UHGV virus genome: UHGV-1356101
Reading direction: 5' to 3' (one strand)
Origin: a virus
Length of the DNA: 37,233 nucleotides
Shown here: piece by piece, positions 5,770 to 7,549 of the stretch
Position numbering within the stretch: position 1 is the first letter of the stretch
Layout of the letters: every line of letters starts with the position of its first letter
Program-made: the position numbers and the translations under genes
The notes under the pieces: generated by a model
Told to the model about the DNA's origin: nothing
Databases searched by the model: none
The model's input: only the letters and a program-made list of their open reading frames with translations

Positions 5770-6057
5770 TTAATTCTCAAAAGGGAGGGGGGATACCTTG
5801 ATCTCGCTCAACTTCAAGCTTATTCCTTCTTTTTCTTTCATCAATTCCGATGTATAAATCGCAGATTCTTTTCTTTTCGTAACGATTTTTATAAAAATCT
5901 CTCCAAGTGGGGTTGATGTCACACTCCATTTATCATTAGCACCAACACCGATATCGACACACTTCTTTACTGCATCCCCCAATATCTCAGTTACTTCCGA
6001 GACGCTTCTATCTACTCGTCCACTCCACTCAAGTTCGTACATCTTGATTTCTTCCAT
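5770..6057 (-). CDS. Hypothetical protein.
   Basis: 95 aa ORF between HNH and TerS. Confidence 0.35.
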   Translation of the reverse strand: MEEIKMYELEWSGRVDRSVSEVTEILGDAVKKCVDIGVGANDKWSVTSTPLGEIFIKIVTKRKESAIYTSELMKEKEGISLKLSEIKVSPLPFEN

Positions 6058-6341
6058 GCTTCAAACTCCCTTCTTCTTTTCCTCTGCCAGTACAATCCAG
6101 CAGCTGTGACCTTACCTGTCTTCCTGTCGTGCATCCGATCATGTTGCGCAGTGGACATGCCGATAAGATTCCAGTCCACAAGTGCAAGCTCTGGATACTC
6201 TTCCAGAGGATAGATATGGTGTACTGTCGTAGCTTCCGCATACTTGCCGTATCTCTTAGACTCTTGACATTGATAGTTATCACGCCTTAATATGTTTTCT
6301 CTTTTCTTTTTCCACTTTCGGCTTTCGTAAAACTTTCCCAT
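6012..6341 (-). CDS. HNH endonuclease, packaging-associated.
   Basis: Carries the CQESKRYG...HHIYP...N...H HNH motif. It sits directly upstream of terS/terL, as in cos-type HK97-like phages. Confidence 0.85.
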   Translation of the reverse strand: MGKFYESRKWKKKRENILRRDNYQCQESKRYGKYAEATTVHHIYPLEEYPELALVDWNLIGMSTAQHDRMHDRKTGKVTAAGLYWQRKRRREFEAWKKSRCTNLSGVDE

Positions 6342-6489: not shown

Positions 6490-6646
6490 CTTTTACTCCT
6501 TTGTAACATAATAAAAGCACCCATCTCTGGATGCTAAGAATTTAGGACTACTGCTGAAAGAATTAATAACGCCAACAAAAACCAAAATAACCAAATACAC
6601 AATCAAAATTTATAAGAAAAAGGAGGAACCTTGCAGTAGTCCACAA

Positions 6647-6719
6647 CGGGTATAGTAGGACTCGAACCTACGACAAATCGGTTAACAGCCGATCGCTCTA
6701 CCAACTGAGCTATACACCC
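6647..6719 (-). tRNA. tRNA-Asn (anticodon GTT), 73 nt, no encoded CCA.
   Basis: Manual cloverleaf: acceptor GGGTGTA/TATACCC, D arm GCTC-AGTTGGTA-GAGC, anticodon stem ATCGG/CCGAT with loop CTGTTAA, T arm GTAGG-TTCGAGT-CCTAC. Confidence 0.85.
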
Positions 6720-6918
6720 GTAGGATGCCTTTTACTGACATCCTTTACCCTATCCGCACTCGGGTACGCTGATTACACTAAATATAGATTGCTGAATCTA
6801 TTTTTGTTTGTTTTGCAGATCTGCGGATACCTGCGTTTTGGTACCATTTGCAATGTAAGTCCGGTGTGCACTCCCAGAACAGACCTCAGCTGTGCAGCCT
6901 GCATACTCACATCACAAA

Positions 6919-6989
6919 GCGGAGCACTTGGAATCGAACCAAGGACACAGGGCGCGACCCTGCGCATCTACCATTGATGCTATACTCCG
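6919..6989 (-). tRNA. Noncanonical tRNA-like gene (71 nt). Acceptor, D and T arms are canonical but the anticodon arm is aberrant. Anticodon is CGC if read as a 7-nt loop (GTCGCGC), but then position 26 is missing and the variable loop is only 3 nt; otherwise the loop is 5 nt (TCGCG).
   Basis: Acceptor CGGAGTA/TGCTCCG with discriminator C, D arm GCAT-CAATGGTAG-ATGC, T arm CTTGG-TTCGATT-CCAAG. No G3:U70 pair. Confidence 0.4.
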
Positions 6990-6995
6990 CATGAA

Positions 6996-7034
6996 AACAC
7001 CGCCAGACGAGAAAGGGTAAAGTCCGGCGGTGTT
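6996..7034 (-). terminator. Rho-independent-like hairpin (13-bp GC-rich stem, one mismatch) followed by TTTT, immediately upstream of the tRNA-like gene on the minus strand.
   Basis: Minus strand reads AACACCGCCGGAC-loop-GTCTGGCGGTGTT followed by TTCAT. Confidence 0.4.
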
Positions 7035-7104
7035 CCGAATGTTGTTTGGAAAGCTTTTGGAGTCTTTCTTCTAACTCCATGTTATACTATATATTATTTA
7101 AAGC

Positions 7105-7128
7105 GGACAATGTGGACAAAACGGACAA
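7105..7128. repeat. Three GGACAA direct repeats at 9-bp spacing, just 3' of the late activator gene.
   Basis: GGACAATGT GGACAAAAC GGACAAAC at 7105..7130. Confidence 0.5.
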
Positions 7129-7132
7129 ACTT

Positions 7133-7549
7133 CTATTTTTCTTTCATCCACCTCTGAAATTCTTTCCTTGCGCTTTCTCCTGTGCAATTCCCTTTCATCT
7201 TCGCAGCCACTTCATCCCATGTCAGTCCTTGCATCACCTTGAACCGGATAATCCGCTGCATCCTTACCGGAGCTTTATTGATTACTCGCTCCGCTTTTAC
7301 TTTGATCTGCTTTGCATTTCTTTTTCGTTCTTCCAGCAACCGTTCCTCTTCGTCTATGTTCACCGTGTTCTCTACACATCCATAGATATTAAAACTCTGC
7401 GGTTGGTACGGGAACTCTGGATTGCTGCCTGTCACCTTGTCCTGCACAAACGTCTTTCTTCTGTGCCGTCTGATATCTTCCTCTGTCTCTTTCACAAGTG
7501 CTTTCGCATCCATGTACTCATAGATTATATTCTTATCCACCTCAATCAC
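7133..7549 (-). CDS. Putative late-gene transcriptional activator (ArpU/RinA-like, sigma-70 region-4-type C-terminal HTH).
   Basis: 138 aa. The C-terminal ...RMQRIIRFKVMQGLTWDEVAAKM...ARKEFQRW resembles sigma region 4. It is the last early gene before the tRNAs and the packaging operon. Confidence 0.5.
   Translation of the reverse strand: MIEVDKNIIYEYMDAKALVKETEEDIRRHRRKTFVQDKVTGSNPEFPYQPQSFNIYGCVENTVNIDEEERLLEERKRNAKQIKVKAERVINKAPVRMQRIIRFKVMQGLTWDEVAAKMKGNCTGESARKEFQRWMKEK

What the first reader, a model, noticed from the sequence alone, without database searches (positions are those of the whole stretch)
6919..7034. Noncanonical 71-nt tRNA-like gene preceded by a strong hairpin, next to a canonical tRNA-Asn, in the late region
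The element has perfect acceptor (7 bp, discriminator C), D and T arms (T loop TTCGATT), so it is clearly tRNA-derived. Only 20 nt separate the D stem from the T stem. Either the anticodon loop is 5 nt (TCGCG) on a CAGGG/CCCTG stem, or it is a 7-nt loop GTCGCGC (anticodon CGC) with no position 26 and a 3-nt variable loop. It lacks G3:U70, so alanine identity is not expected even if the anticodon is CGC. It could be a decaying tRNA, a processing or structural RNA, or a tRNA with unusual decoding. A 13-bp GC hairpin plus TTTT (6996..7034) sits just upstream on the same strand, separating it from the late activator gene.
Basis: seen in the sequence. Interest (0 to 1): 0.55.

Follow-up and report, generated by a model that had tools for sequence, protein, structure and literature searches.

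The report
Non-decoding tRNA mimic in phage late leader
The "tRNA-Ala" annotated in these Ruminococcus gnavus gut phages is probably not a working alanine tRNA; it belongs to a conserved family of tRNA look-alikes that keep the acceptor and elbow half but have a stunted or missing anticodon arm, and it most likely serves as a cutting signal in the late transcript.

Summary
On the minus strand, 6918-6990 folds as a tRNA-like cloverleaf, 3 nt after a conserved terminator-like hairpin (6996-7034). It lies between the late activator gene rinA and a canonical tRNA-Asn.

ARAGORN calls it tRNA-Ala(cgc), and GenBank annotates it that way in three phages, two of them about 97% identical to the window here. 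It fails Rfam's tRNA threshold, lacks G3:U70, has an 8-bp acceptor stem, no position 26 and a 3-nt variable loop.

In about 88 distinct related phage loci the same slot is always occupied by a tRNA-like element:
- A "maxi" of 71-73 nt, whose anticodon region is a variable 15-17-nt stub. Five forms were seen in these 88 loci and seven in all; none has a canonical loop except as one possible drawing of the window's form.
- A "mini" of 44-45 nt, with no anticodon arm at all.

Acceptor, T and D-like stems stay 96-99% paired with compensatory changes. T-loop positions 54-58 and the GG of the D loop never vary. No relative carries a normal tRNA in this slot.

Best reading: a non-decoding tRNA "top-half" mimic, cut out by tRNA-processing enzymes and punctuating the late leader. 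No processing step has been tested.

Rivals are a trans-acting decoy, a pseudogene and an odd decoder.

The parts
6918..6990 (-). tRNA-like element, 'maxi' form class A, 73 nt. G1 = 6990, C72 = 6919, discriminator U = 6918.
   Evidence: ARAGORN calls it tRNA-Ala(cgc). It is below the Rfam tRNA threshold, with tRNA-Sec at 28.3 bits. The cloverleaf is the MFE fold, z = -4.4. Across 19 variants 98.8% of cells are paired.
6983..6990 (-). Acceptor stem 5' strand (GCGGAGUA). It pairs with 6919-6926 (UGCUCCGC), giving 8 bp including U7:G66.
   Evidence: Read from the sequence. All 8 pairs are kept in 19 variants, with C2:G71 alternating with U2:G71.
6964..6980 (-). D arm: 5-bp stem GCAUC/GAUGC, 7-nt loop AAUGGUA with G18 G19.
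   Evidence: The evolutionary path A-U, then A:C, then G-C is seen at one pair (L315).
6947..6963 (-). Stub 'anticodon' arm GCAGGGUCGCGCCCUGU. The 4-bp base is conserved and the top varies. It can be drawn as 5 bp plus the loop GUCGCGC (anticodon CGC), or as 6-7 bp plus a 3-5-nt loop.
   Evidence: Relatives carry 15-, 16- and 17-nt versions. A30-U42 becomes G-C between class A and class B.
6944..6946 (-). 3-nt variable loop GUC. There is no position-26 nucleotide between the D stem and the stub stem.
   Evidence: Read from the sequence. Invariant in all maxi variants.
6927..6943 (-). T arm: CUUGG / UUCGAUU / CCAAG, with G53:C61.
   Evidence: U-A, U:G and C-G all occur at pair 49:63. The T loop is invariant.
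6991..7034 (-). Terminator-like leader hairpin: 13 bp (7022-7034 with 6996-7008), 13-nt C/U-rich loop, followed by UUUUCAU, which is the 5' leader of the tRNA-like element.
   Evidence: Fold at z = -4.9. It is conserved in all related loci, with pair-preserving changes in L044.
7081..7128 (-). Putative RinA-dependent late promoter. Three TTGTCC repeats lie at 7123-7128, 7114-7119 and 7105-7110, and a -10-like TATAAC at 7081-7086.
   Evidence: The repeat sequence covaries perfectly with the RinA C-terminal helix in 65 loci. This places the hairpin and the tRNA-like element in the late leader; that step is an inference.
7133..7549 (-). rinA-type late transcriptional activator gene.
   Evidence: GenBank homologues are annotated as RinA family. 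It matches phrog_36, transcriptional regulator, E = 1.8e-12.
6848..6917 (-). Long hairpin that starts directly after the discriminator (trailer UUGUGAUGUGAGU pairs with ACUUACAUUGCAA).
   Evidence: Fold. Related loci carry alternative hairpin cassettes at this position.
6646..6720 (-). Canonical tRNA-Asn(GUU), the genuine tRNA of the unit.
   Evidence: ARAGORN. Rfam tRNA 73.6 bits. In relatives it is replaced by Ile(UAU), Lys(UUU) or Trp(CCA).

Best explanation
The element is a tRNA-derived structured RNA that no longer decodes. It keeps what the tRNA-maturation machinery recognises:
- a coaxial acceptor/T helix;
- a canonical T loop;
- a GG-containing D loop that can close the elbow;
- a U at position -1;
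- a U discriminator followed by a UUGUG trailer.

Its anticodon arm is a short, variable stub, and in sister phages it is absent altogether.

It is transcribed from the RinA-dependent late promoter as part of a long structured leader, in this order: promoter, terminator-like hairpin, tRNA-like element, long hairpin, conserved spacer, genuine tRNA, then the HNH, terminase and head genes.

I propose it works as a tRNA-punctuation element. RNase P would cut at its 5' end, 6-11 nt after the upstream terminator hairpin. Read-through transcripts would then gain essentially the same hairpin-protected 3' end that termination would give. RNase Z, or an equivalent 3' activity, would cut after the discriminator and free the downstream hairpin and spacer RNA. 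The small tRNA-like RNA would be released and probably receive a CCA tail.

Shown here: the structure, its conservation by compensatory change, its constant position, and its non-canonical anticodon region.

Inferred here: transcription from the RinA promoter, every processing step, and the benefit to the phage.
For: **Structure is real and tRNA-like.**
- The cloverleaf is the MFE fold.
- It is detected by ARAGORN, but not by Rfam tRNA at threshold.

**The slot is always filled by a tRNA-like element, never a normal tRNA.**
- Among 88 distinct loci, 52 carry a maxi and 36 a mini.
- No canonical-length relative appears in 56 viral plus 53 metagenome hits to the maxi's T arm and acceptor.

**Two forms with little shared sequence beyond the invariant T-loop core keep the same top half.**
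- Mini: 14 pairs, 96.3% of cells paired, compared with 55% or less when partners are slid. Five pairs have changes on both sides, matched by 0 of 500 shuffles.
- Maxi: 22 pairs, 98.8% paired, 3 pairs with compensatory changes.
- By my hand count from the variants, about 16 stem substitutions preserve pairing and 3 break it. The binomial p is 7e-6 against a neutral expectation of one third.

**Conservation follows tRNA rules.**
- T-loop positions 54-58 (UUCGA) are invariant and positions 59-60 vary.
- G53:C61 and the GG of the D loop are invariant.

**The anticodon region is the least constrained part.**
- The arm is 15, 16 or 17 nt long. Loops lack U33 in classes B and C. A stem mismatch occurs in L046. 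The arm is absent in the mini.
- ARAGORN calls none of classes B, C or the mini.

**Processing-type flanks.**
- Position -1 is U in 42 of 44 variants and the discriminator is U in 43 of 44.
- The trailer UUGUG is the same as after the neighbouring genuine tRNAs.

**Constant position behind a terminator-like hairpin.**
- The element follows at least five different hairpins, 6-11 nt from stem to G1, as I measured from the contexts printed. This includes relatives with a HicAB insertion or a different activator.

**Other points.**
- Maxi and mini alternate in backgrounds whose RinA is 98% identical.
- The element lies in the late leader: the RinA boxes covary with the RinA recognition helix.
- The ORF running through it is not conserved in frame.
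Against: - **No expression or processing data.** Every enzymatic step is inferred.
- **The genuine tRNA already separates the leader.** It lies 200 nt downstream and must itself be cut by RNase P and a 3' nuclease. A second handle is therefore not obviously needed merely to separate the leader from the mRNA.
- **Flanks are equally conserved.** Within the maxi group the flanking leader is as conserved as the element. Conservation alone is uninformative, and the case rests on covariation and on two alternative forms.
- **The phages are closely related.** The number of independent substitutions is modest, and several hairpin contexts share their 3' arm (GGTGCTTTTTCTT), so they may not be independent.
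- **Narrow distribution.** Apart from one 91%-identical RinA locus that carries the mini (L130), the 73 more distant RinA loci in Lachnospiraceae prophages carry an ordinary tRNA, two irregular tRNAs, or nothing in this position, not this element.
- **Class A can still be drawn as a decoder.** A 5-bp stem with a 7-nt loop having U33 and G37 is possible, so decoding by that one form is not formally excluded.
Confidence: 0.45

Rival explanations
1. Trans-acting tRNA mimic. The excised RNA, tailed with CCA, is itself the product. It would act as an uncleavable decoy or sponge for a host factor that binds the tRNA top half, such as a tRNA-targeting defence nuclease or toxin or a tRNA-modifying enzyme. 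Alternatively it could be a minihelix charged by an anticodon-independent synthetase for use off the ribosome.
For: - Only the top half is conserved. That is the part bound by most tRNA-handling proteins.
- The locus is unusually polymorphic among otherwise near-identical phages: the maxi classes and two mini subtypes. This is compatible with an arms race.
- The adjacent genuine tRNA is a swappable cassette of Asn, Lys, Ile or Trp. From general knowledge, tRNA-Lys and tRNA-Asn are known targets of anticodon nucleases.
- The maxi acceptor end (G1:C72, C2:G71, G3:C70, U73) matches the acceptor identity set described for bacterial tRNA-Gly. This match is from general knowledge and was not tested.
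Against: - No partner protein or defence system was identified.
- A decoy does not explain the constant position 6-11 nt behind a terminator hairpin.
- The mini and maxi acceptor stems differ, so a single specific synthetase or nuclease partner is not obvious.
- No expression data exist.
Confidence: 0.2
2. Decaying tRNA pseudogene. A once-functional phage tRNA lost its anticodon arm through indels, and the remnant persists only because the phages diverged recently.
For: - Indels and mismatches occur in the anticodon region: L046, L051, classes B and C.
- L106 is a deletion chimera with tRNA-Asn.
- Irregular tRNAs also occur after rinA in more distant prophages, L171 and L196.
- The flanks are as conserved as the element.
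Against: - Damage is confined to the anticodon arm. Stems elsewhere change almost only by pair-preserving or compensatory substitutions, about 16 against 3 by my hand count, binomial p = 7e-6.
- Both forms, which share little sequence beyond the T-loop core, keep the T loop, the GG and the stems.
- Every one of 88 distinct loci retains an element.
- The D-stem A:C mismatch is repaired to G-C in L315.
Confidence: 0.15
3. Functional but architecturally odd decoder. Class A would be a real tRNA with an 8-bp acceptor stem, 5-bp D stem, no position 26, a 5-bp anticodon stem and a 7-nt loop. It would read GCG with anticodon CGC, as GenBank annotates it, or would insert another amino acid at GCG.
For: - ARAGORN calls it tRNA-Ala(cgc).
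- The loop GUCGCGC has U33 and G37.
- A 5-bp D stem plus a 5-bp anticodon stem gives the canonical 10 stacked layers. This is my own reading of the sequence.
- GCG is used at 15 per 1000 codons in this phage.
Against: - It has neither G3:U70 nor A73, so alanine charging is not expected.
- It falls below the Rfam tRNA threshold.
- The MFE fold closes the loop to 3 nt.
- Common sister alleles have 4-bp stems with G33, 6-nt loops or no arm at all, yet occupy the same slot.
- Charging with any other amino acid would cause mistranslation at a frequent codon.
Confidence: 0.07
4. DNA-level element. The tRNA-like sequence would act as a recombination or insertion hotspot that marks a module boundary where cassettes are exchanged, or as part of the packaging site.
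For: - The region is a mosaic junction. Upstream modules, HicAB insertions, spacer hairpins and the genuine tRNA are all exchanged around it.
- L106 shows recombination between T-loop sequences.
Against: - G:U intermediates occur on the transcribed strand. They would be C:A on the other strand, which points to selection on RNA rather than on a DNA cruciform.
- The integrase gene is 14 kb away.
- Conservation that follows tRNA T-loop rules is not expected for a DNA site.
Confidence: 0.08

Closest known systems
mascRNA / MEN-beta tRNA-like elements of mammalian MALAT1 and NEAT1
   Same: Both are tRNA-like cloverleaves with a reduced anticodon arm, embedded in a longer transcript directly after a 3'-end-protecting structure. 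In the mammalian case RNase P cleavage creates the upstream RNA's 3' end, and RNase Z plus CCA addition release a small non-decoding RNA. That is the mechanism proposed here.
   Different: The mammalian elements are eukaryotic nuclear RNAs with no sequence relation to this one, and no Rfam match was found at E <= 10. Here the upstream structure is an intrinsic-terminator-like hairpin rather than a triple helix. A form lacking the anticodon arm entirely also exists. Processing has not been tested.
Murine gammaherpesvirus 68 vtRNA-hairpin units (TMERs)
   Same: These are virus-encoded tRNA-like RNAs that are not aminoacylated. They are directly followed by stem-loops, and tRNase Z cutting after the tRNA-like part releases the downstream hairpin RNA. 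Here a roughly 70-nt hairpin also starts immediately after the discriminator.
   Different: The herpesvirus units use Pol III promoters that lie inside the vtRNA, and their hairpins are pre-miRNAs. The element here sits in a bacterial Pol transcript, and any function of its hairpin is unknown.
Phage regulatory RNAs matured by RNase P (P4 CI RNA, P1/P7 C4 RNA, phi80 M3 RNA)
   Same: These are phage-encoded non-tRNA transcripts whose acceptor/T-like fold makes them RNase P substrates. This is from general knowledge.
   Different: Those RNAs act as antisense or immunity RNAs with defined targets. No complementary target beyond chance was found for the stub arm or the hairpin loop here. There is no sequence similarity.
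tRNA-like domain of tmRNA
   Same: It consists of an acceptor stem, a T arm and a D-loop analogue, with no anticodon arm. That is the same top-half design as the mini.
   Different: ARAGORN makes no tmRNA call. There is no G3:U70 and no tag reading frame. Here the two halves are contiguous, joined by 2 nt, rather than separated by about 300 nt.
Irregular and pseudo-tRNAs (allo-tRNAs with 8/4 or 9/3 helices, tRNA-Sec 8/5, B. cereus tRNA-Other)
   Same: These also have a non-7/5 acceptor/T geometry; the maxi is 8/5 and gives a partial tRNA-Sec model hit of 28.3 bits. They are found in Clostridia and phages, and some are proposed to be charged but not used in translation (PMC5389517).
   Different: Allo-tRNAs and tRNA-Sec have long variable arms and canonical anticodon loops. 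This element has a 3-nt variable loop and a stub arm or none.
Mitochondrial tRNA punctuation
   Same: tRNA or tRNA-like folds between functional RNAs serve as RNase P and RNase Z cleavage signals in a polycistronic transcript.
   Different: Mitochondrial tRNAs still decode and lose their D or T arms, not the anticodon arm. Here the reduction is the reverse.

Membership tests
Canonical elongator tRNA (Rfam RF00005) | Covariance-model score at or above the gathering threshold (29 bits) | tested here: not met
   Only tRNA-Asn passes at the gathering threshold. At E <= 10 the best clan hit for 6919-6990 is tRNA-Sec at 28.3 bits, and the tRNA model scores lower.
Canonical elongator tRNA (Rfam RF00005) | 7-bp acceptor stem, position 26, 5-bp anticodon stem with a 7-nt loop (U33, R37), and a 4-5-nt or long variable region | tested here: not met
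   The acceptor stem is 8 bp, there is no position 26, and the variable loop is 3 nt. A 5-bp stem with a 7-nt loop can be drawn only for class A. Classes B and C have 4-bp stems with G33, L051 has a 6-nt loop, and the mini has no arm.
Canonical elongator tRNA (Rfam RF00005) | Elbow residues: U8, A14, G18 G19, T-loop U54 U55 C56 R57 A58, and G53:C61 | tested here: met
   All are present in the window. The T-loop core, G53:C61 and the GG are invariant in all maxi and mini variants.
tRNA-Ala (as annotated in MT980836, MT980837 and MT980838) | G3:U70 wobble pair in the acceptor stem (the major AlaRS determinant), with A73 | tested here: not met
   Position 3:70 is G:C under either numbering. The only G:U is U7:G66, in the wrong orientation and place. 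The discriminator is U, or C under the alternative numbering.
tRNA-Sec (Rfam RF01852) | 13-bp acceptor/T helix (8/5 in bacteria) | tested here: met
   The element has an 8-bp acceptor stem and a 5-bp T stem.
tRNA-Sec (Rfam RF01852) | Long variable arm, UCA anticodon, and a score at or above the gathering threshold (47 bits) | tested here: not met
   The variable loop is 3 nt, the anticodon is not UCA, and the score is 28.3 bits.
tRNA-His | Extra G-1 paired with C73 | tested here: inconclusive
   G6990:C6919 could be read as G-1:C73. However, alignment of the trailers with the mini and the genuine tRNAs favours G1:C72 plus U73.
tRNA-His | GUG anticodon in a canonical loop | tested here: not met
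   No variant contains GUG in the loop.
tmRNA | tRNA-like domain with G3:U70, plus a tag-peptide reading frame and pseudoknots | tested here: not met
   ARAGORN finds no tmRNA in the window or in related loci. Rfam gives no tmRNA hit at E <= 10.
tRNA-like processing mimics (mascRNA type) | tRNA-like fold with a reduced anticodon arm, embedded in a longer transcript next to a 3'-end-stabilising structure | tested here: met
   Fold and covariation support the tRNA-like structure. The element lies 6-11 nt behind terminator-like hairpins. It sits downstream of the RinA-box promoter.
tRNA-like processing mimics (mascRNA type) | Cleavage by RNase P at the 5' end and RNase Z at the 3' end, followed by CCA addition | not testable with these tools
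   This needs RNA-end mapping or in vitro cleavage assays. Only circumstantial features are available: U at -1, a U discriminator and the shared UUGUG trailer.
Decaying tRNA pseudogene | Neutral decay: stem-breaking substitutions at the neutral rate, lesions in any arm, and loss in some lineages | tested here: not met
   96-99% of cells are paired and 8 pairs carry compensatory changes. About 16 stem substitutions preserve pairing and 3 break it (hand count), p = 7e-6. All 88 distinct loci keep an element.

The most novel reading that the evidence does not exclude
These gut phages would have evolved a natural "top-half tRNA": an acceptor/T minihelix with an elbow and a stub or absent anticodon arm. 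It would be cut out and CCA-tailed by host enzymes. It would then act in trans, for example as an uncleavable decoy that soaks up a tRNA-targeting defence nuclease or toxin while the adjacent swappable genuine tRNA replaces the cleaved host tRNA. Alternatively it would be an aminoacylated minihelix used off the ribosome.
Probability: 0.15. Interest if true: 0.8.

Novelty: new variant of a known kind. Interest (0 to 1): 0.55.

Why it matters
**Annotation.** At least three GenBank phage genomes annotate this element as tRNA-Ala, which is very probably wrong. Automated ARAGORN annotation of the related metagenomic contigs would give the same call. The 45-nt sister form is not annotated at all, and in RG-TP1 it is covered by a spurious "hypothetical protein" CDS.

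**Biology.** The locus gives a compact natural experiment. The same slot holds either a stub-armed or an arm-less tRNA mimic, both under selection for pairing. That says the acceptor/T/elbow half of tRNA is sufficient for whatever the phage needs. If the processing model is right, this is a bacterial-virus counterpart of mascRNA and the herpesvirus vtRNA units. It would be a simple, transplantable RNase P / RNase Z handle for Firmicutes. If the trans-acting model is right, it would be a new kind of phage counter-measure built from half a tRNA.

**Late regulation.** The element also draws attention to an unexplained design in these prevalent Ruminococcus gnavus phages: a RinA-dependent promoter followed within about 40 nt by a strong terminator.

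Tried and rejected
- **Known RNA family.** Rfam with permissive thresholds on the window and on two mini-bearing loci gave nothing above chance except the partial tRNA-Sec hit and terminator look-alikes such as LhrC.
- **Antisense regulator.** The reverse complement of the stub arm matches only itself. The hairpin-loop complement gives 7 hits against 6.6 expected. One 8-nt match next to tRNA-Asn (6743-6750) is not conserved in L041.
- **Small protein.** An ORF from ATG 7080 runs through the hairpin and the element. In L041 a 1-nt indel shifts its frame, and the ATG probably lies upstream of the transcription start. I rejected it.
- **Wider distribution.** A covariance model of the mini and a strict T-arm/acceptor scan were run on 74 RinA-linked Lachnospiraceae prophage loci. 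They found the element only in the one locus whose RinA is 91% identical. More distant loci carry ordinary or occasionally irregular tRNAs there.
- **Parent tRNA.** The mini's T-arm/3'-acceptor 22-mer also occurs in ordinary Thr(UGU), Tyr, Ser and Met tRNAs of unrelated large viral contigs. It looks like a generic tRNA half, and no parent could be assigned.
- **Codon usage.** GCG is common in the phage. This neither supports nor excludes decoding.
- **Conservation against flanks.** Within the maxi group the whole leader is equally conserved, so this test was uninformative.
- **Literature.** The two R. gnavus phage papers only count tRNAs found by ARAGORN or tRNAscan-SE. I found no description of this element.
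Full report
**What the window is.** The 37.2-kb window is a temperate siphophage of Ruminococcus (Mediterraneibacter) gnavus. The kilobase around the finding is 97% identical to phiRg507T2_3 and phiRg519T2 (MT980837, MT980838) and 90% identical to phiRg507T2_2 (MT980836). All three records annotate a "RinA family transcriptional activator", a tRNA-Ala and a tRNA-Asn there. The published descriptions only count tRNA genes found by ARAGORN or tRNAscan-SE. The gene order on the minus strand is:
- rinA (7133-7549; phrog_36 transcriptional regulator);
- the finding;
- tRNA-Asn (6646-6720);
- an HNH endonuclease (6012-6341);
- small terminase, large terminase and portal.

**Checking the observation.**
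- ARAGORN calls 6918-6990 tRNA-Ala(cgc).
- Rfam's tRNA model does not reach threshold. The best clan match is tRNA-Sec at 28.3 bits, against a threshold of 47, because of the 8/5 acceptor/T helix.
- The minimum-energy fold is a cloverleaf: 8-bp acceptor stem, 5-bp D stem, a tightly closed "anticodon" helix, 3-nt variable loop and 5-bp T stem. Its z-score is -4.4.
- A strict search for a T arm flanked by a complementary acceptor finds only this element and tRNA-Asn in the whole window.
- The upstream 13-bp hairpin with its U tract is real and very stable (z = -4.9).
- G3:U70 is absent, so the GenBank label "tRNA-Ala" is not supported.

**What related phages carry.** Exact-pattern scans of IMG/VR, GenBank phages and a RinA-based locus search gave 129 loci, which reduce to 88 distinct 330-nt contexts. 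Every one has a tRNA-like element directly after the hairpin, in one of two architectures.

*Maxi form (52 contexts).* This is the window's body, with an anticodon region that varies:
- GCAGGGUCGCGCCCUGU (class A, the window's form, 36 contexts);
- GCGGGGUAUCGCCGC (class B, 12 contexts);
- GCAGGGUCUCGCUGU (class C);
- a 16-nt version, a version with a stem mismatch, and hybrids.

Only class A is called by ARAGORN. Classes B and C have 4-bp stems and loops with G at position 33.

*Mini form (36 contexts).* This is a 44-45-nt element built from:
- a 6-bp acceptor stem;
- a 2-3-bp D-like hairpin whose loop contains GG;
- a 2-nt linker;
- a canonical T arm.

It has no anticodon arm or variable loop at all.

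A metagenome scan (53 contigs) and a viral scan (56 contigs) with the maxi's T arm and acceptor found no canonical-length version.

**Evidence for selection on structure.**
- On 21 distinct mini sequences, 14 pairs are 96.3% paired, against 55% or less for slid partners. Five pairs have changes on both sides: acceptor C2-G71 to U-A, D-like G-C to A-U and U-A to C-G, and T-stem G-C to G:U to A-U at two positions. No shuffle out of 500 reaches this.
- On 19 distinct maxi sequences, 22 pairs are 98.8% paired. There are compensatory changes in the D stem (A-U to A:C to G-C), the base of the stub arm (A-U to G-C) and the T stem (U-A to U:G to C-G).
- Counting events roughly by hand, 16 stem substitutions preserve pairing and 3 break it. 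The binomial p is 7e-6 if one third of neutral changes would preserve pairing.
- Variation follows tRNA rules. T-loop positions 54-58 never vary while 59-60 do. G53:C61 and the D-loop GG are invariant.
- G:U intermediates on this strand indicate selection on the RNA.

One caveat applies. Within the maxi group the whole leader is equally conserved. The argument therefore rests on covariation and on two alternative sequences keeping one fold, not on conservation as such.

**Context.**
- *Late promoter.* Three TTGTCC repeats directly after the rinA stop codon (7105-7128) lie upstream of a -10-like TATAAC (7081-7086). Across 65 loci the repeat sequence covaries perfectly with the RinA C-terminal helix: TTGTCC with ...GESARKEF..., TTGTTC with ...GDSARMEF..., and TT(A/T)TTTC with ...KDSVRMEF.... 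I infer that this is the RinA-dependent late promoter, so the hairpin and the tRNA-like element lie in the late leader.
- *ORF.* The ORF that starts at ATG 7080 and runs through the element is frame-shifted in a relative and is not a gene.
- *Genuine tRNA.* About 200 nt downstream every locus has a genuine tRNA that is a swappable cassette: Asn, Ile(UAU), Lys(UUU) or Trp. Its type is independent of whether the tRNA-like element is maxi or mini.
- *Alternation.* Maxi and mini alternate in phages whose RinA is 98% identical.
- *Upstream hairpins.* The mini also occurs behind other terminator-like hairpins: that of a second activator type with its own promoter (L218), those of inserted genes including a HicAB pair (L117, L228), and others. 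In all cases 6-11 nt separate the stem from G1, as I measured from the printed contexts.
- *Flanks.* Position -1 is U in 42 of 44 variants and the discriminator is U in 43 of 44. The trailer UUGUG is the one found after the genuine tRNAs.
- *Downstream hairpin.* A roughly 70-nt hairpin begins right after the discriminator.

**Interpretation.** The common denominator of all forms is the tRNA top half: the acceptor/T helix plus the elbow. From general knowledge, this is what RNase P, RNase Z and the CCA-adding enzyme recognise. What decoding needs is absent or unconstrained.

I therefore read the element as a non-decoding tRNA mimic that serves as a processing (punctuation) signal in the late leader. 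RNase P would cut 5' of G1, which gives read-through transcripts the same hairpin-protected 3' end that termination would give. A 3' endonuclease would cut after the discriminator, freeing the downstream hairpin and spacer RNA. A small tRNA-like RNA would be released. This parallels mascRNA on MALAT1 and the vtRNA-hairpin units of murine gammaherpesvirus 68.

I hold the non-decoding, structure-selected part with about 0.8 confidence and the specific processing role with about 0.45. The genuine tRNA downstream already provides cleavage sites, so the specific benefit of a second handle is not explained.

**Rivals.** A trans-acting decoy or charged minihelix (0.2) would fit the striking allelic diversity and the neighbouring cassette of nuclease-target-type tRNAs, but it has no direct support. 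A plain pseudogene (0.15) is disfavoured by the covariation and by universal retention. A functional tRNA(CGC) (0.07) is disfavoured by the missing alanine identity, the sub-threshold score and the sister alleles. A DNA-level site (0.08) is disfavoured by the G:U intermediates and the tRNA-rule conservation.

**Distribution and novelty.** The family is restricted to R. gnavus-type phages. In 74 Lachnospiraceae prophage loci with RinA homologues of 31-91% identity, only the closest one has it. It matches no Rfam family, and I found no description of it in the literature searched. It is best classed as a new variant of a known kind, namely tRNA-like processing mimics and pseudo-tRNAs. No expression data exist, and RNA-end mapping in induced cells is the decisive experiment.

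Noticed in passing
window 7081-7128 (- strand), with rinA 7133-7549: Three 9-nt-spaced TTGTCC repeats after the rinA stop codon covary perfectly with the RinA C-terminal helix across 65 loci: TTGTCC with GESARKEF, TTGTTC with GDSARMEF, and TT(A/T)TTTC with KDSVRMEF. This looks like a matched operator and recognition-helix specificity swap that defines the late promoter.
   Followed up: partly
window 6991-7075 (- strand); also L117 and L218: The late promoter is followed within about 40 nt by a strong intrinsic-terminator-like hairpin. Relatives with inserted genes have a second terminator before the late genes. Late transcription must therefore read through terminators, an arrangement like lambda PR'-tR'. 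What provides read-through is unknown.
   Followed up: partly
window 6646-6720; L041 2333-2406; L046 9490-9563; other loci: The genuine tRNA downstream of the mimic is a swappable cassette: Asn(GUU), Ile(UAU), Lys(UUU) or Trp(CCA). Its flanks are nearly identical, and its type is independent of the maxi or mini type.
   Followed up: partly
L117 3040-3880 (also L096, L228, L230): An insertion of about 850 nt sits between the leader hairpin and the mini. It carries its own TTGACA...TATAAT promoter, a HicA-like 57-aa ORF, a HicB-like 134-aa ORF and its own terminator.
   Followed up: partly
L106, about 100 nt after the leader hairpin: This is a deletion chimera. The 5' part of a mini is fused through the shared GGTTCGA T-loop sequence to the 3' part of tRNA-Asn, removing the spacer. 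The resulting acceptor strands cannot pair.
   Followed up: no
window 6721-6917 (- strand): The 197-nt spacer is highly structured (z = -2.7). Its first ~70 nt form a long hairpin that exists as several alternative cassettes in relatives. Its last ~130 nt are almost invariant in all loci. They include the repeats GCAGGUAUCC/GCAGAUCUGC and hairpins that abut tRNA-Asn. This part could be a functional RNA or a DNA site such as cos.
   Followed up: partly
window 6516-6535 (- strand): A second terminator-like hairpin with a U tract follows tRNA-Asn and precedes a small ORF and the HNH endonuclease gene.
   Followed up: no
L042 (RG-TP1, PQ571303) 2012-2155; MT980836, MT980837 and MT980838: These look like annotation errors. 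RG-TP1 gp15, a "hypothetical protein", is an ORF laid over the leader hairpin and the mini. The three phiRg records label the maxi as tRNA-Ala although it lacks G3:U70.
   Followed up: yes
L191 3096-3168, L196 3096-3169, L200 3095-3167: More distant Blautia and Ruminococcus prophages carry, right after rinA, tRNAs with the same acceptor/D/T body (CGGAACA...UGUUCCG-A) but different anticodon arms. These are Ile(UAU), Val(UAC), and a broken-stem "Glu(UUC)". L171 has another irregular tRNA. Anticodon-arm remodelling seems common at this phage position.
   Followed up: no
window 6743-6750 and 7014-7021 (- strand): The leader-hairpin loop CUUUACCC is complementary to GGGUAAAG just 5' of tRNA-Asn. 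The loop differs in L041, so this is probably chance.
   Followed up: partly
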